Part shown: one piece after another, positions 8,696-56,577 of the stretch
How positions within the stretch are numbered: the first letter of the stretch is position 1
How the letters are laid out: each line of letters begins with the position of its first letter
DNA from: an uncultured Alphaproteobacteria bacterium
GTDB lineage: Bacteria > Pseudomonadota > Alphaproteobacteria > HIMB59 > GCA-002718135
Assembly (NCBI GenBank): GCA_902522865.1
Contig: CABYXC010000009.1
Location: 2,007-66,006, forward strand
DNA: 64,000 nt
Direction: 5' to 3'
Translations under genes and position numbers: made by a program
Notes under the pieces: model-generated
Told to the model about the DNA's origin: nothing
What the model saw: only the letters and a program-made list of their open reading frames with translations
The model's database searches: none

Positions 8696-8745
8696 ACACA
8701 AGAAACTGATTGTGCTTTTAATGAAAATTGCATAGGTTAATTAAA

Positions 8746-13363: not shown

Positions 13364-13364
13364 T

Positions 13365-14905: not shown

Positions 14906-15001
14906 AATTTAATAAAATTATGGTAACTGAAATTAAAAAGATAGCTAGTAAAAATTAATTATTTACCATATTTTCTTAATTAAATTATAAATCATAAGAG
15001 A

Positions 15002-15844: not shown

Positions 15845-15846
15845 TT

Positions 15847-17505: not shown

Positions 17506-17530
17506 AGAAATTAAATTTTAAATAAAATAA

Positions 17531-18610: not shown

Positions 18611-18618
18611 TCATCAGT

Positions 18619-19944: not shown

Positions 19945-19948
19945 AATA

Positions 19949-36880: not shown

Positions 36881-37951
36881 ATGAAGAAAAATCAGATCAT
36901 TTTAGGCGATTCAATTAAGGAAATGAAAAAACTAAAAGATCATTCTGCTGATCTTATTTTTGCTGACCCACCTTACAATCTTCAATTAAAAGATACCTTA
37001 TACAGACCTGATCAAACAACAGTCGAAGCAGTTACACAAGATTGGGATAAATTTAGTACGTATAAAGAATATGATCAATTTACTAATGCGTGGCTTAGTG
37101 AATGTAAACGTGTTTTAAAAAAAGGTGGGGCACTTTGGGTGATAGGAAGTTATCATAATATTTTACGTGTTGGTTCTACAATACAAGATGCAGGCTTATG
37201 GATTTTAAATGATATTATTTGGCATAAAACAAATCCCATGCCAAACTTTCGTGGTACACGTTTTACAAATGCGCATGAAACACTGTTATGGTGCACAACA
37301 TCAAGAGAAGCAAAATACACATTTAACTATCAAAATCTCAAAGAACTAAATGAAGGAAAACAAATGCGGAGTGACTGGTATATTCCTATTTGTTCAGGGA
37401 AAGAAAGATTGCGTAAAGATAACAATCAACGATCACACCCAACGCAAAAACCAGAAGCTCTCCTCTACCGAATTCTATTAGCATCGACAAACAAAGGTGA
37501 TCTTGTTCTTGATCTTTTTTCTGGAAGTGGGACAACAGCTGTTGTAGCTAAGAAATTACAACGTAACTTTATTGGCATAGAAAAAGATAAAGACTACGTT
37601 AAACTTTCAAAAGAACGATTAAAGAATACAAAAGTATTGAAAGAAGAAGTTGTTACTATTGCAAAGAGCAGAAAAGAATTACCAAAAGTTCCTTTTGGTG
37701 AATTAGTCGAGCAAGGAATTATTCCACCAGGTGCCGTATTAACAGATAAAAAAGAACGCTTTAAAGCAACGGTCAGTATTGATGGAACACTTAAAATAAA
37801 AGATTTAACAGGTTCTATTCATCAAATGGGAGCTAAAATACAAGGACTACCAAGTTGTAATGGATGGGATTTTTGGCATGTAAAAGATAAGTCAAAATCA
37901 ATCCTACTTGACGAAATACGATCTAATTACCGTAAAGATAAACTAAATTAA
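36881..37951 (+). CDS. ccrM: cell-cycle-type N6-adenine DNA methyltransferase (GANTC-specific CcrM orthologue)
   Basis: Collinear with Caulobacter CcrM: FADPPYNL, WVIGSYHNI, NDIIWHKTNPMPNF, RGTRFTNAHETLLW, MRSDW, HPTQKPEALLYR, FSGSGTT, and the C-terminal SIHQMGAKIQ...CNGWDFWH. Confidence 0.95.
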   Translation: MKKNQIILGDSIKEMKKLKDHSADLIFADPPYNLQLKDTLYRPDQTTVEAVTQDWDKFSTYKEYDQFTNAWLSECKRVLKKGGALWVIGSYHNILRVGSTIQDAGLWILNDIIWHKTNPMPNFRGTRFTNAHETLLWCTTSREAKYTFNYQNLKELNEGKQMRSDWYIPICSGKERLRKDNNQRSHPTQKPEALLYRILLASTNKGDLVLDLFSGSGTTAVVAKKLQRNFIGIEKDKDYVKLSKERLKNTKVLKEEVVTIAKSRKELPKVPFGELVEQGIIPPGAVLTDKKERFKATVSIDGTLKIKDLTGSIHQMGAKIQGLPSCNGWDFWHVKDKSKSILLDEIRSNYRKDKLN

Positions 37952-38496
37952 TAATCTTTTATTCTTCCAACGACATTAAGATTTTGATCAGCTATTAATA
38001 TTTCACCGGAAGTTACTGCCTGACCAAAGATAGCAGCGATTACTACGTAGTGTGTAACAAATACTATATTACCTTCATTTTCTAAATTGTTTATAAAATT
38101 AATTAATTTTTCTAGTTGTGGCTCTTTATTTTTATAAAATTTTGGATCATAAAAAGAATTAAGAGCATTAAACGTTTCAAATTTTTTGAATGCTAGATTT
38201 GCTGTTTCTTTACAACGACACCATTCACTAGATAAAACTAAATCTATAGAAATATTATTTGTGTCAAAAAAATTCCCTAATTCAATAGATTGTTCTCTAC
38301 CAACACTATTAAGATTCCGCTGAGTAGAACAATCAATAATATCAAAATTATCAGGATCTCCATTACCAGGAGCTAATGCATGTCGAATAAATATTAATTT
38401 ATTGTTTTGTTTTAATAGCTCTACATAATCTGAATTAGCATTACCTGATAAAGAATAAAAAAAAGTAAGTAGAATAATAATTAATTTCTTAATCAA
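37948..38496 (-). CDS. secreted histidine phosphatase-superfamily protein (PGAM-like branch)
   Basis: Signal peptide MIKKLIIILLTFFYSLSGNA, the RHG-type motif FIRHALAPG, RCKETA, and late VTHY. It overlaps the upstream PBP gene by 8 nt. Confidence 0.65.
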   Translation of the reverse strand: MIKKLIIILLTFFYSLSGNANSDYVELLKQNNKLIFIRHALAPGNGDPDNFDIIDCSTQRNLNSVGREQSIELGNFFDTNNISIDLVLSSEWCRCKETANLAFKKFETFNALNSFYDPKFYKNKEPQLEKLINFINNLENEGNIVFVTHYVVIAAIFGQAVTSGEILIADQNLNVVGRIKDY

Positions 38497-39808
38497 TTAT
38501 AATTCTTGGCTCAAAAGGGTGAAGTTTTTCTAAACGCTCAACTGACCAAAGATTATCATCTGTGACTTGGTTTAAAGAATACATACCTTCCACATCGCCG
38601 TTAATATCAAAATCTAGTGATCCAGAAACACCCTCATAATTAATTTCAACACCACGAAGAAGTAAAGCTCTAGCGGCTTCCCAACTTCCAGGTCCCATTT
38701 TTATTCCAGGTGGGTTAGCAACACTAACTAAACTTTTTGATAAATCTTCCTTTGCAATATTATTTTGTGCCTGATGCTGTAGTGCCAAAGCTGCTAACAT
38801 CATTGTATCAAAACTTATAGCAGAATAAGGAGAATTAGGATCAACACCTGCGTTCAACATTATATTTGCGTAAGTTTGGAATTCTTCTGAACTTTGTGAA
38901 GTTGCTTGGGCAACAATAGTTGTATTTTTATTTAACTGGATTGGAATATAGGAATAGATTAAATCTTTAACTTCATTCGTTAACATACTATCAGAACCAT
39001 AATGATGTTTAAAAATACCTGAAGTTTCTAGTTCTTGTAATCTGGTCAAAACAGTATTTACAAATTGTTCTAGTAAATTAACTGTTCGTTCATTTCCGTG
39101 AAGGAACATGACTAAACCGGGTTGATTATTATCTATAGCAATATCAACAAATGTATTAATGAAGTTTTGATTGATCAGTGTCTTATCAGTTAGTAAAGTA
39201 TTGAATAACACTATACCTTCTTGTTCGGTATAAACTTTTAAAAAATTTTGAGCGAGTGTAGAATTATAATTATCATCACCGTAGAGAAGAATTATTTCTC
39301 TTATGTTTTTAGATAGTAGATAATTGGCAATGGATGTTGATTGTTGAATATCAGAAGGAATAGTTCTAAAAAATAAATCATTATCTTCAATTGTTGAAAG
39401 TAACGGGTAACTAGCAGAAGAAGAAATCGTTAAAATATTGTCTGGAATAGTTGCTCGTTCAATAACTTTAACAGCACTTGTTGAACACGTCGGTCCTAAA
39501 AGGATTTCTGGATCATTATTTTTTAAATAGGCATTTAAACTTTCTTCTGTTTTTGTAGGATCGCATCCTGTATCAATAGTATCAATTGATATAAGACCTC
39601 TTCCTACTACACCAATACCGTCCGCATTAATTGTTTCTACAGCAACTCTTTTTGCTTCCGCAATTGCTTCAGCAATTTCACTAACAGGACCACTTTCTGC
39701 GTAAAGGGCTGCAATTTTTACTTCTGCGTATACAAAAGTTGAGTAAAAAAATATGATCTTGAGGATAATTATCGTAAATATTTTCATTATTTGAGATCTT
39801 TTTATCAT
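38489..39808 (-). CDS. type-1 periplasmic binding protein (LivJ / ANF-receptor-like), orphan
   Basis: Signal peptide. KIAALYAESGPVS...AVETINADGG-like start, FRTIPSD..Q, YEGVSGSLDFDINGD. No cognate permease or ATPase genes lie nearby. Confidence 0.7.
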   Translation of the reverse strand: MIKRSQIMKIFTIIILKIIFFYSTFVYAEVKIAALYAESGPVSEIAEAIAEAKRVAVETINADGIGVVGRGLISIDTIDTGCDPTKTEESLNAYLKNNDPEILLGPTCSTSAVKVIERATIPDNILTISSSASYPLLSTIEDNDLFFRTIPSDIQQSTSIANYLLSKNIREIILLYGDDNYNSTLAQNFLKVYTEQEGIVLFNTLLTDKTLINQNFINTFVDIAIDNNQPGLVMFLHGNERTVNLLEQFVNTVLTRLQELETSGIFKHHYGSDSMLTNEVKDLIYSYIPIQLNKNTTIVAQATSQSSEEFQTYANIMLNAGVDPNSPYSAISFDTMMLAALALQHQAQNNIAKEDLSKSLVSVANPPGIKMGPGSWEAARALLLRGVEINYEGVSGSLDFDINGDVEGMYSLNQVTDDNLWSVERLEKLHPFEPRIIID

Positions 39809-39814
39809 AAATTT

Positions 39815-41497
39815 TTAGAATGAAAATGTGGCATTGAGTAAATACACTGGTCTAGAAGTAGTTCCCTCAACACTTTTATCCGCTTCTGCTACTTCAAAAC
39901 TAATATCTAGACTATTAGAATTAAGAGGAATTTTTAATTTAACACCGTACCCGCCACTTGCCACTTCTGTTCGACTAAACTCACCTGAAGCTGGTCGTTT
40001 ATAGTAGGTAGCACCAACACCAAGATGGATATATGGTTCAATACGTATAGACTCTTCCTTTTTATCTTCTTCTCCTTCTAAAAAAGGATAAAAAGGTCTG
40101 CTCAATTCTGTTCGCAGAAAAAAACCTTGATCACCAGACATATTACCTGATTCATAACCAGACATTTGTCCTGGTCCTGTTATATTCATTTGTTCTGAGA
40201 TAATTAAACCTCTATCGCTAACAAGTTTTTGAAAAACAAAACGTGTGTTCAATAAATAATCTCTAAATATTTGCCTATTCAAATTAATATCACTATTCCA
40301 TTTTATAAAATTTAAAGTGGAACCAACACGGGATAATGTTTTTGTATCTGATGTTTTATTTGTATACATAGGAGTACCAAACTTTAAAGCTGAGCTAGCT
40401 TTAAGCGAGAAAGAATCTAAAAAAGATAAGTTAGTAGTTGTATATTTTAACTCTAGAGCATTGTACTCATCGTAAAAGTTATCTTCTGTGATGTTAGGTA
40501 GTATTGAATAATCTCTTCCTTTAATCCATTGCCAATCTAATGAAAGATTATTTTTTATAAGCCTTGTATTTTTTATTTGATATTCAAGACCAAAGTTGAT
40601 TTGTTTGGATTCCCCCTTTTTTTCTAGTCCGTTGGGTTCCGAATAAGATTCATTAACAGCGCCAAATACAGAAAAGTCTGATGCAAGAATTGGTACTTTA
40701 CCACCAACAAGATAGGCTTCTCGAAAATCAGTCCGTTTAATTATTTCTGTATCATCTATTGGCACATTAACACTATTTTCAGGATCTAAGACGTAAGCTG
40801 CATAAATATTTTCACCGTAACCAAAAGGACTGTTAAAACTTAAATAAGAAGTAAACTGATCTTTTCCTGCTGTTTCAGATAATCCATTTGAATAGGTAAA
40901 ATAACCATTAACTAATTTATGTTCAGCGTTTAATTGCAATGAAGAAGTTCCAGGCTCCTCTCCTGCCTTAATCGTAGTTTCTAATTCAACACCTGGTAAT
41001 TCTCGTGATTTAATAATCGATTTTTCAATGACGGGATATTCTAATCCCTTAATACCAACAAGTTTTTTAAAATATTTTTTAATTGGCTTAGAAATACGTT
41101 TATCTAGTTGTGAGTAATCAATTGATTCAATTTTACCAGGAAAAACAATGGCTTTTACCTTAGTATTTTGTTCAATCGTTTGAGGTGGAACAATAAAACG
41201 GGTTAAAAAATATCCATTTAAAACATACAGTTGTTCTAAAGCAATCAATAAATTATAAAAATCTTTTAATGTTATTATTTTAAAAATTTTTGATTTAAAT
41301 AAATTTTTACGAAGCTCTATCATTTCTTCAATTTCATTTTCAATCTCAATACCAACAAAATTAAATGAAATATTTTCTGCACCAGGTGGAATAACTAAAC
41401 CTGTTTCATAAACAATATAATTACCAGTATTAGTAAAAACAGGATATGTCATAAATGAAGTAGAGATAAAAAAGATAAAAGATAAAAAATATCTCAT
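39815..41497 (-). CDS. two-partner-secretion outer-membrane transporter (ShlB/FhaC/HecB family TpsB)
   Basis: Signal peptide and a POTRA-like region (KAIVFPGKIESIDY...LVGIKGLEYPVIEKSIIKSRELPGVE...IKAGEEPGTSSL). Alternating-hydrophobic barrel strands and a terminal ...LLNATFSF. The start codon abuts the tpsA1 stop codon. Confidence 0.85.
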   Translation of the reverse strand: MRYFLSFIFFISTSFMTYPVFTNTGNYIVYETGLVIPPGAENISFNFVGIEIENEIEEMIELRKNLFKSKIFKIITLKDFYNLLIALEQLYVLNGYFLTRFIVPPQTIEQNTKVKAIVFPGKIESIDYSQLDKRISKPIKKYFKKLVGIKGLEYPVIEKSIIKSRELPGVELETTIKAGEEPGTSSLQLNAEHKLVNGYFTYSNGLSETAGKDQFTSYLSFNSPFGYGENIYAAYVLDPENSVNVPIDDTEIIKRTDFREAYLVGGKVPILASDFSVFGAVNESYSEPNGLEKKGESKQINFGLEYQIKNTRLIKNNLSLDWQWIKGRDYSILPNITEDNFYDEYNALELKYTTTNLSFLDSFSLKASSALKFGTPMYTNKTSDTKTLSRVGSTLNFIKWNSDINLNRQIFRDYLLNTRFVFQKLVSDRGLIISEQMNITGPGQMSGYESGNMSGDQGFFLRTELSRPFYPFLEGEEDKKEESIRIEPYIHLGVGATYYKRPASGEFSRTEVASGGYGVKLKIPLNSNSLDISFEVAEADKSVEGTTSRPVYLLNATFSF

Positions 41498-42320
41498 TTA
41501 TAACCTTTGGATACTAATTGCGTCTACCTGAGGAAAAGACGTAATGAATTCATTTTTAATTAAAGCAGCGTTAGACGCACCATCAACAGAAATAAAAGAA
41601 ATTATTCGAGATACGTCATCGAAAACATCTTTATTAATTTTTTCCTGTACAACAATTTTTTCTTTTTCTTCATCTGGTGCTACACCTGGAAGAGGTGGTG
41701 TTGAAGCCCCAGCTAAAATATTTGCTGTTGGTATTGCTTCTAACGCACCAGAATTTTCATTTATTGGAATTGGATTTGATGTAAAACCAGATAATTCATA
41801 ATTTATTGTAACATCTTTATCATTGCCAACATCTGCATCTGCAAAACTGCCAGAAGAACTAATAGAAAGATCTGAACCTGTTAAGTTTAAACCCGATATA
41901 GTGCCACCACTTGTAGTGGCCGTTGTAGTTCCATCATATGTTTTATCATTTGCCGAAGCACCTGATACTGTAAAGTTAGCTGACATTAAAGATCCAGTTG
42001 TAGCCGTAACAGTTGAAAGATTAATATCTCCCATACTTGCATTTGTTAATGTGCCTCCATCTAAAAGTTGTATATTGAGATCTTCAGCCGTCAAACTTGC
42101 TAAACTAGCTACTACATCACCTGCTCCCGCATCTCTATCGCTATCAGAAACACTATTATCATTTGAATCACTTGCAATAATTTCTAAATTTGATGCGGTG
42201 TTAATATTGCTATTAATGTTTACATCTCTTCCTGCATGAAGGTTGAGACTACCCGTACCAGTGACAGTAATGGCAGAACTAATAGTGATGTCAGTATTAG
42301 CTTGAAGAGTAACATCAACA
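41498..42320 (-). repeat. tpsA 3' conserved module, copy 1 (more divergent); approximate inner edge
   Basis: Starts VDVTLQANTDITISSAITVTGTGSLNLHAGRDVNIN and contains DKTYDGTTTAT. Confidence 0.7.
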
Positions 42321-46828: not shown

Positions 46829-46834
46829 AAATGC

Positions 46835-47700
46835 TTATAGACTTTGAAAACCTAAACCTTCAGTATTTGGAGTAGATTGTATGTTGGCTTCTCTTGCTAA
46901 TTGAAGGGACATATTTGATCCAACTATAGCGTCTACAGATACGAAAGGAACAATTTTGTTAATGTCTCCAATCATGTTTTCCACAATTTCTGTTTGATCA
47001 TTACTGGTCACTTCTACATTATTATTTTCGATTGAAGAACTGCTCGAACTTGTCCCAGTTATAGCTGCTGTGACACTCTCGGTAATAGCAGTACTACTCG
47101 TATCTGTCACATCCATCGTGCTACTTAAATAGCCACTGAGATCATAGTCCACTGTTGCATCTTTTGCTGCACCAATAGTTGCTGATGTGAATGTGGCTGT
47201 ATTTACAAGTGCTAAGTCACTACCAACTAATGTTAATCCTGAAACAGATCCCGTTGTAGCAACTGTTGCTGACGTTGTGCCATCGTGCGCTTTATCACTG
47301 ACAGCTGCTCCCGAACCACTAAAGTTTGCTGATTGCAGTGTTCCTGTTGTAGCCGTAATAGTAGCAAGTTCAATGTTCCCCATACTGGCATTACTCACAC
47401 CACTGCCGTTATTAAGTGTTATATCTAAATCACTTGCCGATAAACTTATAGATGTTGTTCCATCACTTTCATAGGCCGCTAAAATATCACCGGTTCCGCT
47501 ATCACGCTGCGCACTCACGACATTATTAGCACTAGTATCACTGGCAATAATTGCTAAATTGCCAGAAGTACTAATTGACTTATTAATATCAACATCACGT
47601 CCAGCATGCAGACTTAATGTTCCTGTGCCAGTTGTTGTAATGGGCGCGTTAATTATAATATCGGTGTTCGCTTGAAGTGTCACATTCACATTGGTATCAA
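46835..47700 (-). repeat. tpsA 3' conserved module, copy 2; approximate inner edge
   Basis: Starts VNVTLQANTDIIINAPITTTGTGTLSLHAGRDVDINKSISTSGNLAIIASD. By manual alignment there are about 26 mismatches in the first 210 aa against copy 3, and the DNA is visibly near-identical (e.g. 47500-47640 vs 51240-51380). Confidence 0.8.
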
Positions 47701-50557
47701 GAAGAGCTTCAAGCGCATCCACACTAATTGTAATATCACTACTAGAATCTTCAGTATAGGCTGTACCATCAAGATAATTAGATGACGTCAATAATTCTAC
47801 ACCTCCACTTGTATATCCTAAAGCAAGGTTGGAACCATCAGAACTTAAAGCCATTTTTTGTACATCTGCACCATTCAAAGCATAAAATGAGGAAATTAAT
47901 GTTGGGTTTGAAAAACTTGTATCACTAAAACCGTACCCTTTAATTATATAATCACCTGATGTGTTAGATGATATTAAAAGAGTGCGTCCGTCTCCACTTA
48001 ACGCATGAGCACGAACGCCACGATTTCCGCCAGCAGGGGCATCGAAGCTAATATTATTATTACCAGTACACGATGAGCAATCATGTGCAAATTGAAGAGC
48101 AAGTGAAGGATTAGAAAAATTATTATCTGAGAAAGTAACTATATTATGTTCAGAACCTGTAAACGAAAGAGCTGTGGCATCATCGGTTAAATTCAAATTA
48201 TATGGTATATTATTACCTAATGTATGGTAATTAATACTCGTTATGGGGAAAGTAGAATTATATGAATATGGTGTACTTCGACTCTCAGCCCAGAGTACCC
48301 TTGTTATTGTGGGAGATGTAAAATTTGTATCACTAAATGAAATTAAATGAATACCTTCAAGCACTGCTACTGCCATTCTTGATCCATCAGAATTAAGAGC
48401 GATCCCACCTCCAAATCCCTGGTTAAATAAATCTAATAGTTGTAAATTTTGACTGTAGGCTGCATTAGGAGTTTCGGAGATATGCCCAACAATGGTTGGA
48501 TTAGTAAAATTAGTATCGTCAAATTTAATAGTATAGACAGAACCCGCTTTACCGGGGGCGTTATGTATTGGTGCTCCTAATACCAGACGATCACCATCAT
48601 AATCTAAATCAAACTGAACCGGATAAGGATCATTTGATGGAAATTCAAAATCTAAACTGCCAGGATGAGTACCTGATAAAGCATCATAACCTTTACCTAT
48701 AATACCTCTAAGAGTTGGATTGGAAAAGTTTGTGTCACTAAACTGAAATAAATAAAGAGCTGGATAATTATTGCTACTATCATTATAGCCATCGTCAAGC
48801 CGTGAAAGTACACCAAGTTTTGTTCCATCTCCGCTTAATCTTACACCGGACATTCCAAATTGATCATCATTTGCCATATTAAAACTAGTCAAGTCGACTG
48901 CACTATTAGCAGAACTATCTATTATTGATTGATATGTCCAATTTTTTGAGGTGCCAACATCCCCGATAGTAATATTTTTAGGATCTAAAAGTAAATGACC
49001 ACCAGCACTAATTGAAATATCATTTAGTCCAATATGACGAAGTGTATCCTTTGATGATATTTCAACTGACCCGCCTATTGTTCCTGTTGCAAGAATTTTT
49101 CCCAGCATCGTTGTTTCTTGATCACTCCAAATGATTGCTGTGCCTGCATCACCATTACTAGAAGCAACGTCAATGATAGCGCCTTTGTTTATAAAAACAA
49201 ATTGTGCATTTTTCATACTTGGAAGAATTCCCCAACGATTAATAAATGTTTCTTCTTGTGCTGTTGTCCGTGTTAGATCATTACTTCCTTGAAACGCACC
49301 ACCAATTCTTACTAAACCACCTCTACTAGTACCACTCGCATCAAGGTTTGATGTATAAAGGGTTGCTTTACTGCTTGCTTCAATAGCAAGTCGTCCTCCC
49401 ACACCATTCAAACCTGCAGCTATAATATTTCCTGATGTTTCAAAATTTTTTGCACTAATATTTATGTCTCCTCCTTCTGTTCCAGAGGCATCTAAAGTGC
49501 TATTCGATGTTTGTATAATTTTATTTGATGACGAAAGAGTAATATTACCTCCTTGTGCCACTGTTGATGATGCATCAATGGATCCATCAAGATAGATATT
49601 ACCTATCGATGCAAAGTTAGCATTACCTGAATCTTCACCTGATACATCTACTTTTCCAGTAAAAGAGATTAAACCCGCATCAATATTAACGAGACCTTCC
49701 TTTGCAGTCATGTTTCCTAAAACATTAATAGGCGCTGTACTTCCTCCAAGAGTAATAACACCATTTTCTTGTGAAGCTGTTGTGGCAACAAGATTACCAG
49801 GAATGAACACGGCGTTGTTTAATGCTGTTTTAGCTGATCCAATATCAATATCTATAGTGTGAGCATTAGAAGATCCAGCATGTTGAATGAGAGCTTTAAC
49901 ATCTTTATTTTCGTCATCAAGAATAGTCGTGGCCAATTCTATTGGCACCGCTACTTGTAAAAACTTGTCTCCGCTTAAATCTAAGGTAATTTCTTTTCCC
50001 GCACCAAGACCAAGTTTTCCAAGGTTGGCATTAATAGTCCCTTCATTATTGATCGCACCACCTAGTAGAGCAGTAAAGCCTCCATCTAATGTCGTGATCG
50101 ATCCCTTATTAATAATTGATTGAAGGGATGATTGATTTGAAGAACTAAAAGAAAAAATCTTATTAAGAAAATTATCATTGGATAAAGCCAGCGTTGATGC
50201 AGCAAACGAATGAGCATTGATTGTTGCAGTTGGTGTGAAATAGACACCGTTTTCATTCACCACAAAAACTTTACCATTCGCATTTAATGCGCCTGCCAGT
50301 GTTGTTGGATTGCCAGAAATAACTCTATTAAGGGTACTAGAACTACTTGAAGGTTGTTGAAAGGTAACAGTATTATTTTCTCCGATATTAAAACTATTCC
50401 ATTCAATAATAGCCTGGTTTGATTGTTGGTCGATGGTCATCGTTTGAGTATCAGAGCTAATTGAAATATCACCTGTAATCGTTGTGTTACCACTTGGCAG
50501 TTCAGCCCATAAATAACAGGAAGAAAAAGTAATAATTAAAGTAATTAAGACCCTCAT
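46835..50557 (-). CDS. TpsA-type giant exoprotein 2, 1240 aa
   Basis: Same TPS domain (LNRVISGNPTTLAGALNANGKVFVVNENGVYF), a degenerate FG-GAP-like core, and a C-module nearly identical to that of exoprotein 3. Confidence 0.9.
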   Translation of the reverse strand: MRVLITLIITFSSCYLWAELPSGNTTITGDISISSDTQTMTIDQQSNQAIIEWNSFNIGENNTVTFQQPSSSSSTLNRVISGNPTTLAGALNANGKVFVVNENGVYFTPTATINAHSFAASTLALSNDNFLNKIFSFSSSNQSSLQSIINKGSITTLDGGFTALLGGAINNEGTINANLGKLGLGAGKEITLDLSGDKFLQVAVPIELATTILDDENKDVKALIQHAGSSNAHTIDIDIGSAKTALNNAVFIPGNLVATTASQENGVITLGGSTAPINVLGNMTAKEGLVNIDAGLISFTGKVDVSGEDSGNANFASIGNIYLDGSIDASSTVAQGGNITLSSSNKIIQTSNSTLDASGTEGGDINISAKNFETSGNIIAAGLNGVGGRLAIEASSKATLYTSNLDASGTSRGGLVRIGGAFQGSNDLTRTTAQEETFINRWGILPSMKNAQFVFINKGAIIDVASSNGDAGTAIIWSDQETTMLGKILATGTIGGSVEISSKDTLRHIGLNDISISAGGHLLLDPKNITIGDVGTSKNWTYQSIIDSSANSAVDLTSFNMANDDQFGMSGVRLSGDGTKLGVLSRLDDGYNDSSNNYPALYLFQFSDTNFSNPTLRGIIGKGYDALSGTHPGSLDFEFPSNDPYPVQFDLDYDGDRLVLGAPIHNAPGKAGSVYTIKFDDTNFTNPTIVGHISETPNAAYSQNLQLLDLFNQGFGGGIALNSDGSRMAVAVLEGIHLISFSDTNFTSPTITRVLWAESRSTPYSYNSTFPITSINYHTLGNNIPYNLNLTDDATALSFTGSEHNIVTFSDNNFSNPSLALQFAHDCSSCTGNNNISFDAPAGGNRGVRAHALSGDGRTLLISSNTSGDYIIKGYGFSDTSFSNPTLISSFYALNGADVQKMALSSDGSNLALGYTSGGVELLTSSNYLDGTAYTEDSSSDITISVDALEALLDTNVNVTLQANTDIIINAPITTTGTGTLSLHAGRDVDINKSISTSGNLAIIASDTSANNVVSAQRDSGTGDILAAYESDGTTSISLSASDLDITLNNGSGVSNASMGNIELATITATTGTLQSANFSGSGAAVSDKAHDGTTSATVATTGSVSGLTLVGSDLALVNTATFTSATIGAAKDATVDYDLSGYLSSTMDVTDTSSTAITESVTAAITGTSSSSSSIENNNVEVTSNDQTEIVENMIGDINKIVPFVSVDAIVGSNMSLQLAREANIQSTPNTEGLGFQSL
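48940..50557 (-). repeat. tpsA 5' conserved module, copy 2; approximate inner edge
   Basis: Ends ...SKDTLRHIGL...GGHLLLDPKNIT. Long nucleotide-level matches to copies 1 and 3, for example CATTCACCACAAAAACTTTACCATT in copies 1 and 2. Confidence 0.75.
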
Positions 50558-50563
50558 TAGTGT

Positions 50564-51455
50564 TTATAGACTTTGAATACCTAACCCTTCAGTATTTGGA
50601 GCAGATTGTATGTTACTTTCTCTTGCTAATTGAAGAGATATGGTTGAACCAACGATAGCGTCCACAGATACAAAAGGAACAATTTTATTAATATCTCCAA
50701 TCATATTTTCCACAATATCTCTTTGATCCCTACTAGTCACTGCGGCAATACTATTTTCTTCTGAAGAATTATTTGAATTGCTACTTGATGAACTGCTAGA
50801 ACTAGCTTCAGTGATTGCAGCTGTGACACTCTCGGTAATAGCAGTGCTGCTTGTATCTGTTACATCCATAGCACTACTTAAATAGCCACTAAGATCATAA
50901 TCCACTGTTGCATCTTTTGCAGATCCAGCAGTTGACGATGTAAAACTTGCTGTATTCACCACTGATAGATCACTACCAACTAACGTTAATCCTGAAACAG
51001 AACCAGTATTGGAAACAGTCGCCGAGGTATTACCATCATAGGTTTTATCACTAACGCCAGCTCCTGACGCACTAAAGTTGGCTGATTGTATTGTTCCTGT
51101 TGTTGCCGTAATGGTAGCAAGTTCAATATCCCCCATACTAGCATTTGTAATACCGCTTCCATTATTAAGTGTAATATCCAAATCACTCGCCGTTAAACTA
51201 ATCGCTGTCGTCCCATCACTTTCGTAGGCTGCTAAAATATCACCGGTTCCGCTATCACGCTGGGCACTCACTACATTATTACTTGATGTGTCACTCGCAA
51301 TAATAGCTAAATTACCAGAAGTACTAATCGACTTATTAATATCAACATCACGTCCAGCATGCAGACTTAATGTTCCTGTACCAGTTGTTGTAATGGCTGA
51401 GTTAACAGTAATATCACTATTTGCTTGCAACGTCACATTCACATTTGCATCAAGA
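50564..51455 (-). repeat. tpsA 3' conserved module, copy 3; approximate inner edge
   Basis: Starts VNVTLQANSDITVNSAITTTGTGTLSLHAGRDVDINKSISTSGNLAIIASD. It carries a longer Ser-rich linker than copy 2. Confidence 0.8.
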
Positions 51456-54400
51456 AGATTTTTTAATTCTGTTGTATTAATAATCACATCATCGCTTGAC
51501 GAGTCCGTATACGAATACCCCCCTGATAAAATATTTTCTTTCAGTAAAAGTGCACCACCAAGACCATAACCAGTGTTGCTATTATTGTAACCCAAATCCA
51601 TTGGTGTACCTATAACTAACATTTTACCTGTATCGTCCATGGACATTGCCCCTCCTGCGTATTGGGTTTGATAATAATCAGTATTACCACTAATTTTTGA
51701 TTTAAAAGTACCGTTTGGAGTTATTGTTTGCTTTATTTCTGGGTTCCCAAAACTAGAATCTGAAAAACCAATTAGATGCAGTCTACTATCATCAGATCCA
51801 CGACCACTTACAGCTAAACGGGTACCGTCCCCACTTAATGCTATGGTGACATGATGCACTTTTTCTGTCCAATAATTAGTATATGAAGATGCAGTGTTAT
51901 ATCCACCAGATACTACATGACCCCAATCAAAAGTTTCTGGGAGTATTTTACTATTATTATATAGATATCCTGAATTGCCCGAATAACAACTTTGTGTTGC
52001 CTGACAAGTAATACTGCTATCATTTTCTGATGTAATTGCCCCTACATAAGTTGGTGTAAGAAAATTACTATCAGCAAAGGTGAAAAGATGAATGGCATTC
52101 TGCGACTTGCTTGCGGTATTTACCACAGATCCCGATGTCGTAACTACAGAATTACATACACTTCCAGCGTTAGCATAAGAATTTGAACAATTAGCATAAT
52201 TATGGAGAACGACCAACTTTGTTGCATCATTTGATAATTCTATATCCCAACCAAAATAAGATCCACCAGCTCGCCACATTATTCGATTATTTTCAATTGG
52301 TGCATCATAGCCAATATCTAAACTATGGGAGCCAGTGAGATCTATACCTTGCATATAACCAGTATTACCCTTACCAATTCTTCCCGTAAATGATGGCGAA
52401 GAGAAGTTTGTATCACTGAACGAAATTAAGTTTATTCCTTCACGTTGTTGAAGATTTGTTTCCATAGTAAAATCTTGGTAAGTTAGCGCCAAGCGTGAAC
52501 CATCTGCATTAAGTGCAACGTCTACGTGATGACCCCATGAACTAGTAAATTCAGATTCTCCAGCGTACATATCAAGATCATTCGAAGTAAGTGGGATATC
52601 AAAACTAGAAAATCTAGTTCCTATTATGCCAACATGTTGGGGGTTAGAAAAATTGGTATCATCAAATTTTACTGTTCTTACACCGGGTATAGAGAGAGCG
52701 GTGCCTACCGTGTAGTCATTAATAACTGAATTTCTTCTTATCGCGTCAAAAGAATAAACTAAACGGTCGCCGTCTTGATCAAGTGCAACGTTACGCATAT
52801 ACATACCAGACGTATCAAGATCATTACTACCGCTTGCCCCATTATATAACTGTCCTCTTAATGTTGCATTACTAAAATCCGTATCATCAAAGGTAAAAAG
52901 TAAAATTCTACCTGTTTGACGTGGACAACCCCAACCACAATGAGTGGGTATCTGTACTGATGCTATAGCTAAATTTTTTCCATTACCACTTAATGCAACA
53001 CTAGATCCAATTCTTGTGTTTGTATCAGAATAAACAACAGTACCACCTAAACTACCCTCACTACTATTTAAATCATAGTCCTTACTGCCGGTATAATCAA
53101 AACCAATCACGCCTTGTAAAGACCAACTTTGTGATCCCGCAGTATCACTGATGATAATATTTTTTGGATCAAGAAGAAGATGACCACCCTCTACCATCTT
53201 GATATTTTGTAAACCTAAATAACGAAGAGTATCTTTTGATGAAATTTCTACTGAACCTCCTTGAAGTCCCATTGCATTAATATGCCCTAACATGGTTGTC
53301 TCTTGATCACTCCACAAAATTAGTGTGCCAGGTGTTTGATCTGATTCAATATTGAGGGTTGATCCATCATTAATAAAAAGTGTGTTAACATTTTCCATTG
53401 TTGGTACATTTCCCCACCTTGTTACAAATGTTTCTTCTTGCTCATTTGTTCTAGTGAGATCATATCCTCCTTGAAAGGCACCTCCTATGCGTACAAGCCC
53501 TCCTTGTTGTGAGCCTGAGGCAGTAATATCCGATGATAGAAGTCGAATAGAATTTGTTCCTTCTATATCAATGCGACCACCCTTAGCCGTACTCCCATTT
53601 GATGACAGTGTACCTGAGGAAATAATCGTATTACCTGATAATGCTATTGATCCTCCATTTGTGCCATTAGCGGAAATAAGACTTTTATCCATTTGCATGA
53701 TAGACGGTGATGTAAGTTCTATTGCACCACCAGTATTGTTTTGAGAGTCAGCTAGAATAGATCCAGAAACACTAAGTTCTCCTTTACTGGTAATTGTAAT
53801 GCTCCCCGGTAAATCATCTGATACATCTATTGTTCCACCAAGAGAAAGAGTATCACTGGTAATATTAATGTCCCCTGTTGACGTTGCTTTGAGAGATCCA
53901 TCAATTTTAATAGTTCCACTTCCTGATAAAATAATTTTCCCCTTTTGTTGTTCAGCTTTATTTGCAATCAAAGAGCCAGGAATATTAATTGCATTCGATA
54001 AAATATTTTTAGCTGTTCCAACATCTAACTCTATAGTGTTTCCCTTTGTTGAGCCACTATGACTGATTAAAGAGTCAAGTGTATTGCCTTCATTATCAAC
54101 AACTGTTGATGCTGTATCAAGGGGAACTGCTACTTGTAAAAATTTGTCTCCACTTAAGTCTAGTGCGATTTCTTTTCCAGCGCCAAGACCAACTTTTCCA
54201 AGGTTTGCATTAATGGTACCTTCGTTATTGATCGCACCACCTAGTAGTGCAGTGAAACCTCCATCCAAAGTTGTTATCGATCCTTTATTGATAACAGATT
54301 TCAATGACGATTGATTTGAAGAACTAAAAGAAAAAATATTATTGAGAAAATTATCATTGGAGAGAGCAAGCGTGGAGGCAGCAAAAGAATGCGCATTAAT

Positions 54401-54739
54401 TGTAGATGTTGGTGTAAAATAGACACCGTTTTCATTGACAACATATACCTTACCATTCGCATTCAAAGATCCTGCCAGTGTGGTAGGATTGCCGGAGATA
54501 ACTCTATTAAGTGCACTAGAACTTGATGATGATTGATTAAAGGTAACGGTATTATTTTCTCCGATATTAAAACTATTCCATTCAATAATGGCTTGATCCG
54601 ATTGTTGCTGTATCGTCATCGACTGATCATTGGAGGTAATAGTAATATCACCTGCAATAGTTGCATTACCACTTGGCAGCTCAGCCAATACAAAGCAGGA
54701 ATAAAAAATGGTTATAATTAAAGTAATAAAGACTCTCAT
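50564..54739 (-). CDS. TpsA-type giant exoprotein 3, about 1391 aa
   Basis: Same TPS domain. The ATG at 54739 (MRVFITLIIT...) aligns with the start of exoprotein 2 (MRVLITLIIT...) and is preferred over the TTG at 54781 in the ORF track. Confidence 0.9.
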   Translation of the reverse strand: MRVFITLIITIFYSCFVLAELPSGNATIAGDITITSNDQSMTIQQQSDQAIIEWNSFNIGENNTVTFNQSSSSSSALNRVISGNPTTLAGSLNANGKVYVVNENGVYFTPTSTINAHSFAASTLALSNDNFLNNIFSFSSSNQSSLKSVINKGSITTLDGGFTALLGGAINNEGTINANLGKVGLGAGKEIALDLSGDKFLQVAVPLDTASTVVDNEGNTLDSLISHSGSTKGNTIELDVGTAKNILSNAINIPGSLIANKAEQQKGKIILSGSGTIKIDGSLKATSTGDINITSDTLSLGGTIDVSDDLPGSITITSKGELSVSGSILADSQNNTGGAIELTSPSIMQMDKSLISANGTNGGSIALSGNTIISSGTLSSNGSTAKGGRIDIEGTNSIRLLSSDITASGSQQGGLVRIGGAFQGGYDLTRTNEQEETFVTRWGNVPTMENVNTLFINDGSTLNIESDQTPGTLILWSDQETTMLGHINAMGLQGGSVEISSKDTLRYLGLQNIKMVEGGHLLLDPKNIIISDTAGSQSWSLQGVIGFDYTGSKDYDLNSSEGSLGGTVVYSDTNTRIGSSVALSGNGKNLAIASVQIPTHCGWGCPRQTGRILLFTFDDTDFSNATLRGQLYNGASGSNDLDTSGMYMRNVALDQDGDRLVYSFDAIRRNSVINDYTVGTALSIPGVRTVKFDDTNFSNPQHVGIIGTRFSSFDIPLTSNDLDMYAGESEFTSSWGHHVDVALNADGSRLALTYQDFTMETNLQQREGINLISFSDTNFSSPSFTGRIGKGNTGYMQGIDLTGSHSLDIGYDAPIENNRIMWRAGGSYFGWDIELSNDATKLVVLHNYANCSNSYANAGSVCNSVVTTSGSVVNTASKSQNAIHLFTFADSNFLTPTYVGAITSENDSSITCQATQSCYSGNSGYLYNNSKILPETFDWGHVVSGGYNTASSYTNYWTEKVHHVTIALSGDGTRLAVSGRGSDDSRLHLIGFSDSSFGNPEIKQTITPNGTFKSKISGNTDYYQTQYAGGAMSMDDTGKMLVIGTPMDLGYNNSNTGYGLGGALLLKENILSGGYSYTDSSSDDVIINTTELKNLLDANVNVTLQANSDITVNSAITTTGTGTLSLHAGRDVDINKSISTSGNLAIIASDTSSNNVVSAQRDSGTGDILAAYESDGTTAISLTASDLDITLNNGSGITNASMGDIELATITATTGTIQSANFSASGAGVSDKTYDGNTSATVSNTGSVSGLTLVGSDLSVVNTASFTSSTAGSAKDATVDYDLSGYLSSAMDVTDTSSTAITESVTAAITEASSSSSSSSNSNNSSEENSIAAVTSRDQRDIVENMIGDINKIVPFVSVDAIVGSTISLQLARESNIQSAPNTEGLGIQSL
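53123..54739 (-). repeat. tpsA 5' conserved module, copy 3; approximate inner edge
   Basis: Ends ...SKDTLRYLGL...GGHLLLDPKNII. Confidence 0.75.
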
Positions 54740-54885
54740 AATATTTTTACGAGGCCTTTTTTTTATAAGGGTTTTGACCAACCTTAATTAAGATTTATTA
54801 TAGATCAAATTTAGTAAATATTTACAATTAAATTATAACGGTATTTAAAGAAAAATAAAAATTATTGCATTATGTAGCTCTAGTC

Positions 54886-56199: not shown

Positions 56200-56267
56200 T
56201 TTAAGAATAGAATTTTTATTAGTTAGTCGTTTTGAGGTTTTTTATAATTTGTTCAAGTAGTAAGAAT

Positions 56268-56295
56268 AAAAAAAACCCCCATATGTGGGGGTTTT
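56268..56295 (-). terminator. intrinsic terminator hairpin inside the MATE gene 5' leader (candidate attenuator)
   Basis: CCCCC(56276-80)/GGGGG(56287-91) stem with a 6-nt loop. On the minus strand it is followed by eight U (plus-strand A run 56268-56275). It lies about 70 nt upstream of the MATE start, between divergently oriented genes. Confidence 0.6.
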
Positions 56296-56382
56296 ATAAA
56301 TTCGGCTCATCACCTAATGCGAGGCCTTTTAAAAAAAGGTCTGCTTAAATTGCTTGTTTGGCTTTGGTTGTGGACACCACCC

Positions 56383-56417
56383 TTATTGTGTTGGCGGACT
56401 CATTTTTTTAACTCCTT
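56383..56417 (-). promoter_or_regulatory. candidate leader uORF (MSPPTQ*) with canonical Shine-Dalgarno
   Basis: AAGGAG at 56417-56412, an 8-nt spacer, ATG at 56403-56401, then AGT CCG CCA ACA CAA TAA ending at 56383. It sits at the 5' edge of an unusually GC-rich intergenic patch (about 56300-56400). Confidence 0.35.
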
Positions 56418-56577
56418 TATTTGGGAGCACGATCAATTATAATTTTATAAAATTCTAATTATTTTTTCAAATAATATATTGGTGAAATTTGATACTAAAG
56501 TATTTGGCAAATAAATTAAAAAGAATATAATTCACTATCTTTATTTCCTAAATCTTATAAAACTCCAATTAATTTAA

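What the first reader, a model, noticed from the sequence alone, without database searches (positions are those of the whole stretch)
37948..54885. One operon with three tandem giant TPS exoproteins, a single TpsB, an orphan binding protein and a secreted phosphatase
Six co-directional minus-strand genes are packed with gaps of 6, 6, 0 and 6 nt and an 8-nt overlap: tpsA3, tpsA2, tpsA1, tpsB, a type-1 periplasmic binding protein and a histidine phosphatase. Each TpsA has its own signal peptide and a full TPS secretion domain (…LNRV(I/V)SGNPTTLAG.LNANGKV.VVNENGVYF…). So one ShlB/FhaC-type pore would have to export three different cargoes of 1240-1776 aa. About 13 kb, a fifth of this window, goes to secreted adhesin-like proteins in a genome that otherwise looks ruthlessly streamlined. 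The cargo-cargo-cargo-transporter order with two extra periplasmic or secreted proteins is not the classic tpsB-tpsA or fhaB-fhaC pair. The cluster sits between core genes (ccrM, MATE, guaB) with no integrase, tRNA or flanking direct repeat, and its composition looks less AT-rich than the flanks. That may reflect foreign origin or simply the Gly/Thr/Ser/Ala/Asp-rich protein composition.
Basis: partly seen in the sequence, partly recalled or inferred. Interest (0 to 1): 0.85.

Follow-up and report, generated by a model that had tools for sequence, protein, structure and literature searches.

The report
Multi-cargo two-partner secretion locus with binding-protein partner
A streamlined marine bacterium of the abundant HIMB59/AEGEAN-169 group carries a protein-export system with one outer-membrane pore, three large integrin-like surface proteins and a periplasmic binding protein that always travels with the pore gene; that partnership has not been described before.

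Summary
Six co-directional minus-strand genes lie at 37948-54739 with gaps of 6, 6, 0 and 6 nt and one 8-nt overlap. They encode three TpsA exoproteins (each with a signal peptide and a TPS domain), one ShlB/POTRA TpsB, a type-1 periplasmic binding protein (PBP) and a histidine phosphatase.

The interpretation needs correcting.
- The locus is not foreign. It sits between the MATE gene and ccrM in at least 27 species-level genomes of the order HIMB59 (AEGEAN-169, formerly SAR11 subclade V). GC3 equals the flanks; the GC excess lies at codon position 2.
- tpsA copy number varies: one copy in 14 loci, two in 10, three or more in 3 plus the window.
- All copies share a conserved TPS/β-helix N-terminus and a conserved ~330-aa C-terminus. 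The centre is a hypervariable FG-GAP, integrin-like β-propeller region.
- The PBP is not incidental. Every relative of at least 50% identity, on more than 20 contigs and in three genomic neighbourhoods, lies directly downstream of a tpsB. The next PBP relatives are at most 30% identical and are not linked to TPS genes.
- The phosphatase is a dispensable accessory gene.

Multi-cargo TpsBs, A-B-C gene order and third partners all have precedents. A PBP partner does not, as far as I could find. Verdict: a new variant of a known kind, of moderate interest.

The parts
50564..54739 (-). tpsA-a, 1391 aa. Sec signal peptide, TPS domain (aa 22-279), beta-helical extension to about aa 535, degenerate FG-GAP repeat centre, and a conserved ~335-aa C-terminal region with a YDG-like motif.
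   Evidence: The centre matches the FG-GAP profile by hhalign (prob 99.7, E 1e-25). A 98-99% identical ortholog is the distal copy in L027.
46835..50557 (-). tpsA-b, 1240 aa, same three-part build. The centre is about 370 aa of degenerate FG-GAP repeats.
   Evidence: hhalign prob 99.6, E 8e-24. It is 96-99% identical in 11 other loci.
41498..46828 (-). tpsA-c, 1776 aa, the tpsB-proximal copy that is present in every locus. TPS domain aa 25-280; FG-GAP centre aa 536-1442 (window 42503-45223); YDG domain aa 1618-1681.
   Evidence: FG-GAP_2 gives 8 stretches at E 9.7e-32. The AF2 model has pLDDT 75, and its best PDB matches are integrin alpha propellers at E 6e-11. TPS-domain sequence hits in the PDB: EtpA 1e-38, HxuA 1.5e-25, HMW1 1e-24.
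39815..41497 (-). tpsB, 560 aa, an Omp85/ShlB-type transporter. Its ATG directly abuts the tpsA-c stop codon.
   Evidence: ShlB 4.9e-19 and POTRA_2 6.4e-5. It aligns to CdiB 6wim across the loop-6 region. Loop 6 reads MSGY instead of VRGY/F.
38489..39808 (-). Type-1 (LivJ/LivK-like) periplasmic binding protein, 439 aa, with a Sec signal peptide. It is the conserved third gene of the module.
   Evidence: The PDB profile search matches LivK at 6.7e-15, N-lobe only. It lies downstream of tpsB in every relative of >=50% identity whose upstream DNA is available.
37948..38496 (-). Signal-peptide-bearing histidine phosphatase (branch 1, PRK06193-like), 182 aa. It overlaps the PBP stop by 8 nt and the convergent ccrM by 4 nt. 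It is a variable accessory gene.
   Evidence: Intact in 16 of 30 genome-collection loci, a remnant in L026, absent in 11 (two loci truncated). Other small genes occupy the same junction in L002 and L007.
54740..54885 (-). Leader/intergenic region between MATE and the first tpsA. It contains a conserved hairpin at 54766-54786 (TTAAGGTTGGTCAAAACCCTTAT).
   Evidence: The stem changes in a compensatory way in L013, L025 and L051 while the GGTC loop is kept. RNAalifold predicted no structure.

Best explanation
This is a type Vb (two-partner) secretion module native to the HIMB59/AEGEAN-169 lineage.

Shown from sequence:
- One Omp85-type TpsB gene follows one to three tandem tpsA genes.
- Each TpsA has its own Sec signal peptide and a closely related TPS domain.
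- Each TpsA has three parts: a conserved TPS/beta-helix N-terminus (about 535 aa), a hypervariable centre of FG-GAP repeats that models as integrin-like beta-propellers, and a conserved ~330-aa C-terminal region (YDG domain, a Ser- or Pro-rich linker, and a conserved last ~55 aa).
- A divergent LivJ-type periplasmic binding protein gene always follows tpsB.
- A periplasmic histidine phosphatase gene is sometimes added.

Inferred:
- The genes are transcribed as one unit from the leader upstream of the first tpsA and are translationally coupled (gaps of 0-6 nt).
- All TpsA paralogs cross the inner membrane by Sec and are recognised through their similar TPS domains by the POTRA domains of the single TpsB, which threads them to the cell surface.
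- The propeller regions act as interchangeable ligand- or surface-binding heads.
- Copy number and alleles are shuffled among co-occurring lineages by recombination through the conserved ends and flanks. The driver would be diversifying pressure (phage or grazer recognition) or differing ligand specificity.
- The PBP is a functional third partner in the periplasm. Either it takes up a small, probably amino-acid-like, ligand made available by the exoproteins (the logic of HxuA/HxuB/HxuC), or it holds the conserved periplasm-side part of TpsA during secretion.
For: - TPS, ShlB/POTRA, PBP and phosphatase domains.
- Gene spacing.
- A single tpsB in the window.
- Paralog TPS domains are 63-74% identical with long invariant blocks.
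- Three-part architecture.
- FG-GAP centre: E 1e-31; hhalign 99.6-99.7%; pLDDT 75; integrin alpha propellers E 6e-11, TM 0.58 on the target.
- Locus conserved between MATE and ccrM, with 1, 2 or >=3 tpsA copies, in 27 species-level genomes of o__HIMB59, f__GCA-002718135, g__AG-337-I02.
- The centre occurs as discrete alleles (99/84/62/55/53% identity), while the N-terminal part stays at 81-99%, the C-terminal part at 78-98%, TpsB at 84-99% and CcrM at 92-99%. L003's distal copy is 95/51/97% (N/centre/C).
- Native codon usage (GC3).
- PBP-tpsB linkage on more than 20 contigs, down to 51-58% PBP identity and 52-55% TpsB identity, including two other chromosomal contexts (L040, L041). There is no linkage at <=30% identity.
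- The PBP keeps the N-lobe Cys-Ser and Ala-Ser positions that align with LivK C78-S79 and A101-T102.
- The C-terminal region, including the last 55 aa, is conserved across the family.
- Precedents for multi-cargo TpsBs and for third partners.
Against: - There is no expression, secretion or binding data. Operon status rests on spacing alone, and the promoter scan was uninformative (68 sites against 85 expected by chance).
- A second tpsB elsewhere in the genome cannot be excluded from a 64-kb window.
- The TPS motif reads NENG rather than NPNG and TpsB loop 6 reads MSGY rather than VRGY/F, so canonical mechanistic details may differ. The Ser variant is, however, shared by 122 of 134 nearest TpsB relatives.
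- The PBP model was poor (pLDDT 53.5) and its C-lobe does not align to any solved PBP, so ligand binding is unproven.
- No HAAT-type permease is present in the window.
- PBP identity tracks TpsB and phylogeny, not the tpsA centre allele. This argues against contact with the variable head.
- TPS+FG-GAP systems in other phyla lack the PBP.
Confidence: 0.65

Rival explanations
1. The TPS part is as described, but the binding protein is only a neighbour. It would be an ordinary solute-binding protein serving a distant ABC importer, kept next to tpsB by genome compaction and shared ancestry rather than by function.
For: - It has the N-lobe signature of LivJ/LivK-type amino-acid binders.
- Orphan binding-protein genes are common in oligotroph genomes (general knowledge).
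- Its sequence does not co-vary with the tpsA centre allele.
- TPS+FG-GAP systems in other phyla do without it.
Against: - The subfamily was found only downstream of tpsB, on more than 20 contigs spanning 51-99% identity.
- That includes two loci where the cassette sits in different chromosomal neighbourhoods (L040, L041), so linkage survived relocation.
- Both the TpsB and the PBP families show the same isolated distribution, with a jump from about 52% to <=30% identity.
- The gaps are 6 nt or overlaps.
Confidence: 0.22
2. Only one tpsA is expressed. The extra copies would be a silent cassette store for antigenic variation by recombination, as with orphan cdiA-CT or meningococcal tpsC cassettes.
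For: - Tandem paralogs share conserved 5' and 3' blocks around a variable centre.
- Copy number and alleles differ between genomes.
Against: - Every copy is a complete ORF with its own start codon, signal peptide and TPS domain, and there are no truncated cassettes.
- The 6-nt spacing fits co-translation.
- The paralogs are old (72-83% nt identity). The longest exact matches are 50 nt (a-b), 35 nt (b-c) and under 20 nt (a-c), which is poor substrate for intragenomic recombination.
Confidence: 0.08
3. It is a contact-dependent inhibition (CdiBAI/BcpAIOB-like) toxin-delivery locus.
For: It consists of large TpsA proteins with a TpsB, and the only solved TpsB that the sequence search finds is CdiB.
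Against: - The C-termini are the conserved part and the centre is the variable part.
- There is no VENN motif.
- There is no room for immunity genes, because the gaps are 6 nt.
- No toxin domain was found in Pfam.
Confidence: 0.03
4. It is a recently acquired foreign genomic island.
For: - GC is 6-7 points higher than in the flanks.
- The content is adhesin-like.
- In one distant relative (L031) a tRNA 3' end lies upstream of tpsA.
Against: - GC3 is the same as in the flanks, and the excess is at codon position 2.
- The insertion point is the same in at least 27 species-level genomes.
- There are no integrase, tRNA or flanking repeats in the window.
Confidence: 0.02

Closest known systems
HMW1A/HMW1B/HMW1C of Haemophilus influenzae and EtpBAC of ETEC (three-gene TPS systems)
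   Same: - The TPS domain is of the same sequence subgroup: the best solved relatives are EtpA (1e-38) and HMW1 (1e-24).
- The gene order is cargo, then transporter, then third gene, as in hmw1A-hmw1B-hmw1C.
- The passenger is a beta-helical adhesin-type protein.
   Different: - The third gene here is a periplasmic type-1 binding protein, not a cytoplasmic HMW1C/EtpC glycosyltransferase.
- The passenger carries FG-GAP propellers.
- There are up to three cargo genes per transporter gene.
HxuA/HxuB/HxuC haem-hemopexin acquisition system of H. influenzae
   Same: - The TPS domain is related to HxuA (1.5e-25).
- It is a TPS operon with a third gene from a nutrient-uptake pathway, in which the exoprotein makes a ligand available for import.
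   Different: - The uptake component there is a TonB-dependent outer-membrane receptor. Here it is a periplasmic binding protein with no adjacent permease.
- No ligand is known here, so the analogy is a hypothesis.
FhaC with FhaB and FhaS (Bordetella); meningococcal TpsB with several TpsA
   Same: [quoted passage not shown] A conserved C-terminal region with a Pro-rich linker and a conserved extreme C-terminus recalls the FhaB prodomain (my knowledge, not tested here).
   Different: - Here the cargo genes are tandem, in one apparent operon, with copy-number polymorphism between genomes.
- The TPS and loop-6 motifs are non-canonical (NENG, MSGY).
Uncharacterised TPS + FG-GAP_2 (+YDG/MBG_2) 'beta strand repeat-containing' or 'filamentous hemagglutinin N-terminal domain' proteins (Sinorhizobium medicae, Polaromonas, Syntrophus gentianae, Methylotenera, Blastomonas, Nitrospinae)
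   Same: The domain architecture is the same, and the FG-GAP centre is 30-40% identical.
   Different: The neighbourhoods examined lack the PBP: L081 has TpsA-IalB-TpsB, and L080 has TpsA followed by MBG_2 giants. None of these proteins has a known function.
LivJ/LivK (Leu/Ile/Val-binding proteins, HAAT ABC transporters)
   Same: - It is a type-1 PBP by Pfam.
- The N-lobe aligns to LivK at E 6.7e-15, and the Cys-Ser and Ala-(Thr/Ser) positions are kept.
- It has a Sec signal peptide.
   Different: - It is about 90 aa longer.
- Its C-lobe cannot be aligned to any solved PBP.
- There are no livHMGF-type genes in the 64-kb window.
- It is strictly linked to tpsB.

Membership tests
Two-partner secretion (type Vb) | TpsA with an N-terminal Sec signal peptide and a TPS secretion domain | tested here: met
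   PF05860 at E 1.6e-26, 1.7e-26 and 5e-23, and TIGR01901 at about 1e-19, in all three proteins. Hydrophobic N-termini ending VLA|E, LWA|E and VYA|S were read.
Two-partner secretion (type Vb) | Omp85-type TpsB with a ShlB barrel and POTRA domains, encoded next to tpsA | tested here: met
   ShlB at 69.4 bits (cut-off 22.7). POTRA_2 at 23.2 bits, just under its 24-bit cut-off, but it is recorded for many orthologs. The gap to tpsA-c is 0 nt.
Two-partner secretion (type Vb) | Canonical conserved motifs: NPNG in the TPS domain and VRGY/F at the tip of TpsB loop 6 | tested here: not met
   NENG(V/I)YF in all 50 TpsA examined. (M/I/L)SG(Y/F) throughout the TpsB family. The Ser is shared by 122 of 134 nearest relatives at 25-32% identity, so it is a subfamily trait. 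The motifs vary, but the domains are significant.
Two-partner secretion (type Vb) | TpsB-dependent export of the TpsA protein(s) | not testable with these tools
   Needs a secretion assay or exoproteomics.
Contact-dependent inhibition (CdiBAI / BcpAIOB) | A variable C-terminal toxin after a VENN-type motif, followed by an immunity gene | tested here: not met
   No VENN motif. The C-terminus is conserved and the centre is variable. The intergenic gaps are 6 nt.
HMW1/EtpA-type three-gene TPS systems | A third gene encoding an HMW1C-like glycosyltransferase | tested here: not met
   The third gene is ANF_receptor/Peripla_BP_6. No glycosyltransferase is present in the cluster.
HxuCBA-type nutrient-acquisition TPS | A TonB-dependent receptor gene in the operon, and an exoprotein that releases a nutrient from a carrier | tested here: not met
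   No TonB-dependent receptor in the cluster. The functional analogy with the PBP is untested.
LivJ-type (type-1, HAAT) periplasmic binding proteins | Type-1 PBP domains with a signal peptide | tested here: met
   ANF_receptor 4.9e-28 and Peripla_BP_6 8.7e-17. LivK 6.7e-15 with the family profile. The signal peptide ends VYA|EV.
LivJ-type (type-1, HAAT) periplasmic binding proteins | Encoded with, or serving, LivHMGF-type permease and ATPase genes | tested here: not met
   Only Pfam families at E <= 1e-3 to 1e-5 were listed for the ORFs of >=100 aa in the window, and none was BPD_transp_2. The only ABC system is Opp/Dpp-type, at 624-6199. The rest of the genome was not seen.
LivJ-type (type-1, HAAT) periplasmic binding proteins | Conserved ligand-contacting residues in both lobes | tested here: inconclusive
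   The N-lobe positions aligned with LivK C78-S79 and A101-T102 are C108-S109 and A132-S133, invariant or nearly so in the family. The C-lobe cannot be aligned, and the model has pLDDT 53.5.
FG-GAP / integrin-alpha-like beta-propeller | Repeated FG-GAP blades that fold as a propeller | tested here: met
   FG-GAP_2 with 8 stretches at E 9.7e-32 in TpsA-c. hhalign 99.6-99.7% for the a and b centres. The model (pLDDT 75) best matches integrin alpha propellers at E 6e-11.

The most novel reading that the evidence does not exclude
The tpsA-tpsB-PBP cassette is a three-component capture system of oligotrophic bacterioplankton. Secreted or surface-held integrin-like propeller proteins, with interchangeable heads, would bind or release a dissolved or particle-bound compound at the cell surface. 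The dedicated periplasmic binding protein would then hand it to an ABC importer. That would be a periplasmic-binding-protein counterpart of HxuA/HxuB/HxuC, and a new way in which type V secretion feeds nutrient uptake in one of the ocean's abundant lineages. An alternative reading, equally new, is that the PBP fold has been recruited as a periplasmic chaperone or anchor for the conserved TpsA C-terminus.
Probability: 0.2. Interest if true: 0.8.

Novelty: new variant of a known kind. Interest (0 to 1): 0.55.

Why it matters
HIMB59/AEGEAN-169 cells are abundant, streamlined ocean oligotrophs. According to the literature retrieved, surface fluorescence counts reach about 6% of cells in the South Pacific Gyre (abstract of PMC11366302), and genomes are 1.3-1.8 Mb. 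Spending 5-13 kb on secreted integrin-like proteins at a fixed chromosomal site means these proteins are important to a supposedly free-living minimalist.

The locus is also a polymorphic hotspot, in copy number and in discrete head alleles, of the kind usually ascribed to phage or grazer pressure or to niche partitioning.

The strict pairing of a TpsB with a periplasmic binding protein is a concrete, testable addition to the short list of third partners of two-partner secretion (glycosyltransferase, TonB receptor, BcpO). It could link protein secretion to solute uptake.

Tried and rejected
- An exact-sequence look-up of the window's TpsB found nothing.
- The promoter/terminator scan was uninformative: 68 promoter-like sites against 85 expected by chance.
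- Rfam found no family anywhere in the window.
- RNAalifold predicted no structure for the leader hairpin, although compensatory changes are visible by eye. I did not make a properly gapped alignment to count pairs.
- The AF2 model of the PBP from a 15-sequence alignment was poor (pLDDT 53.5), so I ran no fold search on it.
- The histidine phosphatase has no sequence relative in the PDB.
- I first took the loop-6 Arg-to-Ser change in TpsB as a peculiarity of this clade. The exhaustive search showed the Ser in 122 of 134 nearest relatives, so I downgraded it to a subfamily trait.
- CDI/toxin reading: rejected.
- Foreign-island reading: rejected.
- Assembly artefact: rejected. The paralogs are only 72-83% identical at the DNA level, and independent single-cell assemblies L001, L005 and L006 show the same a-b-c order.
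- The look-up of P0192 (Methylotenera) failed.
- Neither HIMB59/AEGEAN-169 genomics paper mentions secretion, adhesins or hemagglutinins.
- Literature searches for TPS with a binding-protein partner, or for TPS in SAR11-like plankton, found nothing specific.

Full report
**1. Observation.**
The six ORFs exist as described, all on the minus strand.

| Gene | Coordinates | Length |
|---|---|---|
| tpsA-a | 50564-54739 | 1391 aa |
| tpsA-b | 46835-50557 | 1240 aa |
| tpsA-c | 41498-46828 | 1776 aa |
| tpsB | 39815-41497 | 560 aa |
| PBP | 38489-39808 | 439 aa |
| histidine phosphatase | 37948-38496 | 182 aa |

- The gaps are 6, 6, 0 and 6 nt, with one 8-nt overlap.
- The ORF list gives tpsA-a a TTG start at 54781. 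That TTG lies inside a conserved hairpin and is followed by a stop codon in single-copy relatives. The ATG at 54739, which gives the MRVFITLII N-terminus shared with the other copies, is therefore the likely start.
- Pfam and NCBIfam confirm a TPS domain in all three TpsA (E 1e-23 to 1e-26), ShlB plus a borderline POTRA_2 in TpsB, ANF_receptor/Peripla_BP_6 in the PBP, and His_Phos_1 in the last gene.
- The window has one tpsB, one such PBP, three TPS domains and no tRNA gene.

**2. Organism and conservation.**
- TpsB relatives of 81-99% identity occur in 30 species-representative genomes. All are tropical-ocean single-cell or metagenome assemblies labelled 'uncultured Alphaproteobacteria'.
- Six of these SAGs are classified as o__HIMB59; f__GCA-002718135; g__AG-337-I02 in a supplement of PMC10734472. 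That order is the AEGEAN-169 clade, formerly SAR11 subclade V (PMC10308909).
- In every locus with enough flank the order is MATE - tpsA(n) - tpsB - PBP - [phosphatase] - ccrM - RNase HII ....
- tpsA copy number is 1 in 14 loci, 2 in 10 loci, and at least 3 in 3 loci plus the window. L001, L005 and L006 show the same a-b-c order as the window.
- The cluster is therefore a native, fixed-position locus of the lineage, not an insertion specific to this genome.

**3. Composition.**
GC is 0.36-0.38 across the tpsA genes against about 0.30 in the flanks. GC3 is 0.17-0.22, within the flank range of 0.178 +/- 0.038. The excess sits at codon position 2 (0.458 against 0.333), reflecting proteins with 11% Gly, 12% Ser and 10% Thr.

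**4. TpsA anatomy.**
- *Three blocks.* The three paralogs align in three blocks.

| Block | Identity between paralogs |
|---|---|
| Signal peptide + TPS domain | 63-74%, with long invariant stretches |
| Beta-helical extension | about 50% |
| Centre | 27-38% |
| C-terminal ~330 aa | 46-82% |

- *TPS domain.* It is closest to EtpA, HxuA and HMW1 among solved structures.
- *Centre of TpsA-c.* It has eight FG-GAP_2 stretches (E 1e-31).
- *Centres of a and b.* They are too degenerate for Pfam but match an FG-GAP profile at 99.6-99.7% hhalign probability.
- *Model.* An AF2 model of the TpsA-c centre (pLDDT 75, all-beta) best matches integrin alpha-subunit propellers (E 6e-11, TM 0.58 normalised to the target). 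At 907 aa it probably forms two propellers; that count is an inference.
- *C-terminal region.* It holds a YDG domain, then a Ser-rich (a, b) or Pro-rich (c) linker, then a final ~55 residues. These are conserved even in relatives whose TpsB is only 52-55% identical.
- *Toxin signs.* There is no VENN motif and no toxin domain.

**5. Polymorphism.**
- Across genomes, the centre of the tpsB-proximal copy falls into discrete alleles of 99, 84, 62, 55 and 53% identity to the window.
- Over the same genomes its N-terminal part stays at 81-99%, its C-terminal part at 78-98%, TpsB at 84-99%, the PBP at 85-98% and CcrM at 92-99%.
- L003's distal copy is 95% / 51% / 97% (N / centre / C) to tpsA-a, which indicates replacement of the head between conserved ends.
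- tpsA-b is 96-99% identical wherever it occurs, including genomes whose proximal copy is only 53% identical in the centre.
- Within the window the paralogs are old (72-83% DNA identity; longest exact matches 50, 35 and under 20 nt).
- I therefore infer that variation arises mainly by exchange between lineages, not by shuffling within one genome.

**6. TpsB.**
- The family is isolated. In an exhaustive search of 1.84 billion representatives, only one other full-length 50% cluster (54% identity) is close. The next relatives are 25-32% identical.
- Loop 6 aligns with the VRGF of CdiB but reads MSGY, and (M/I/L)SG(Y/F) across the family.
- The review PMC5422565 describes the Arg of VRGY/F as salt-bridged to the Asp of F/GxDxG, and the motif as essential.
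- The Ser is, however, present in 122 of 134 nearest relatives. It marks a larger TpsB subfamily, not this locus alone.
- All 50 TpsA examined have NENG(V/I)YF where the canonical motif is NPNG.

**7. The binding protein.**
- *Family.* The PBP is a divergent LivJ/LivK-type protein. Only the N-lobe aligns to solved structures (LivK 6.7e-15 with the family profile). The positions aligned with LivK C78-S79 and A101-T102 are conserved as C108-S109 and A132-S133. From my knowledge of LivJ/LivK structures, these residues hold the amino-acid main-chain groups. The C-lobe cannot be aligned, and the model was poor.
- *Permease.* No HAAT permease is encoded in the window.
- *Linkage.* The decisive result is linkage. 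Every relative of at least 50% identity with upstream DNA available lies immediately downstream of a tpsB, with a TPS+FG-GAP tpsA upstream of that. This holds on more than 20 independent contigs. In L040 (ThuA/GFO genes) and L041 (PdxA, TctCBA) the cassette sits in different chromosomal neighbourhoods and the pairing still holds.
- *Beyond the subfamily.* Below 50% the next PBP relatives are at most 30% identical and have no TPS neighbours.
- *Other phyla.* TPS+FG-GAP systems elsewhere lack the PBP: Blastomonas L080, and L081 with an IalB-like gene instead.
- The unit of inheritance is therefore tpsA(n)-tpsB-PBP.

**8. The phosphatase.**
- Among the 30 genome-collection loci (L001-L030) the gene is intact in 16, reduced to a remnant in L026, and absent in 11. 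Two loci are truncated there.
- In L002 a 138-aa secreted ORF on the other strand occupies the PBP/ccrM junction. In L007 the phosphatase is present and that ORF plus a rhodanese-like gene follow it.
- Where present, the gene overlaps the PBP stop and is probably co-transcribed, but it is not a defining part of the system.
- Its signal peptide and RHA motif suggest a periplasmic phosphatase. A link to the phosphorus-related flexibility reported for this order (PMC10734472) is speculation.

**9. Likely mechanism.**
- *Shown:* the domain content, spacing, conservation and polymorphism described above.
- *Inferred:*
  - There is one transcript from the leader upstream of the first tpsA.
  - All proteins are exported by Sec.
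  - The POTRA domains of the single TpsB recognise the similar TPS domains of all paralogs, and TpsB translocates each cargo.
  - The FG-GAP propellers are displayed as binding heads on a beta-helical stalk.
  - The PBP acts in the periplasm. It may be a solute receptor for something the exoproteins make available (HxuCBA logic), or a holder of the conserved TpsA C-terminus (FhaB-prodomain logic, from my knowledge).
- PBP sequence does not track the head allele, so any contact would be with conserved parts.

**10. Comparison and novelty.**
- Multi-cargo TpsBs, cargo-transporter-third-gene order, and third partners (HMW1C, HxuC, BcpO) are all documented.
- TPS+FG-GAP+YDG/MBG proteins are common but uncharacterised in databases.
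- Three things appear new:
  - the strict PBP partnership;
  - the tandem, copy-number-polymorphic cargo array with discrete head alleles;
  - their presence as a core locus in a streamlined, abundant marine lineage.
- None of these is mentioned in the two genomic papers on that lineage or in the searches made.
- I class it as a new variant of a known kind.

**11. Limits.**
- There are no expression or protein data, and only 64 kb of the genome was seen.
- Locus flanks were capped at 10 kb, so copy numbers of three or more are minima.
- The PBP's role is inferred from linkage alone.

Noticed in passing
window 54766-54786 (minus strand), about 27-47 nt upstream of the tpsA-a ATG: Conserved hairpin TTAAGGTTGGTCAAAACCCTTAT in the leader of the first tpsA. 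In relatives the stem changes in a compensatory way (L013 AAAAATTT/AAATTTTT, L025 CAAGG/CCTTG, L051 ATAGG/CCTAT) while the loop keeps GGTC. It is followed by an A-run, so it does not look like a terminator. It may be a regulatory RNA or DNA element.
   Followed up: partly
window 56272-56295 (minus strand), in the divergent intergenic region 56200-56577: Strong hairpin plus T-run (AAAACCCCCACATATGGGGGTTTT TTTTATT) upstream of the MATE gene, between two diverging genes. The same hairpin directly precedes tpsA in L022 and L023, where MATE is missing. Rfam finds no family here.
   Followed up: partly
window 54886-56199; L022, L023: The MATE efflux gene next to the cluster is itself variable. It is absent in L022 and L023 and only 68-99% identical elsewhere, while genes on the far side are 92-100% identical.
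   Followed up: partly
window 37948-37951; L002 13109-13525; L007 13590-14386: The PBP/ccrM junction is a small variable spot. It holds the phosphatase (overlapping convergent ccrM by 4 nt), or a 138-aa signal-peptide ORF on the opposite strand, or the phosphatase together with that ORF and a rhodanese-like 122-aa gene, or nothing.
   Followed up: partly
window 39815-41497 (TpsB residues 445-448): TpsB loop 6 reads MSGY where Omp85/TpsB proteins canonically have VRGY/F. The Asp of the partner motif (SGDQG) is kept. The Ser is shared by 122 of 134 nearest TpsB relatives at 25-32% identity, so a sizeable TpsB subfamily lacks the 'essential' Arg.
   Followed up: yes
all three tpsA genes (for example tpsA-c residues 101-107): The TPS domain motif is NENG(V/I)YF instead of NPNG in all 50 family members examined.
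   Followed up: yes
window 624-10047 and 12443-21067: A sialic-acid-like utilisation cluster: SBP_bac_5 plus an Opp/Dpp-type ABC transporter, a NanA-like DHDPS-family lyase, NanE and a ROK kinase. It is followed by three PhyH dioxygenases, two PanB-like genes, two BNR_2 (sialidase-like) proteins and an MFS transporter.
   Followed up: no
L062 (1165-nt metagenome contig): A MATE fragment is joined directly to the C-terminal half of the PBP. This is either a deletion variant lacking tpsA, tpsB and the PBP N-terminus, or a chimeric assembly.
   Followed up: no
L031 about 1443-1490: In a relative with 52% TpsB identity, the 3' end of a tRNA gene (…GGTTCGAATCC…CCA) lies about 110 nt upstream of tpsA, and the cassette is in a different neighbourhood.
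   Followed up: no
L043 and L081: Other TPS clusters carry different extra genes. L043 has TpsA(TPS, Glug, YDG)-CHAT/TPR-unknown-CHASE2 cyclase-TpsB. L081 has TpsA(TPS, FG-GAP)-IalB-TpsB, next to a TbpB-like lipoprotein and a SlipAM/TPR gene.
   Followed up: no
window 56578-57057, 21079-21591 and 21561-22061: ORFs of 159, 170 and 166 aa have no Pfam match. The first is 92-100% identical across the related loci, so it is a conserved unknown gene.
   Followed up: no
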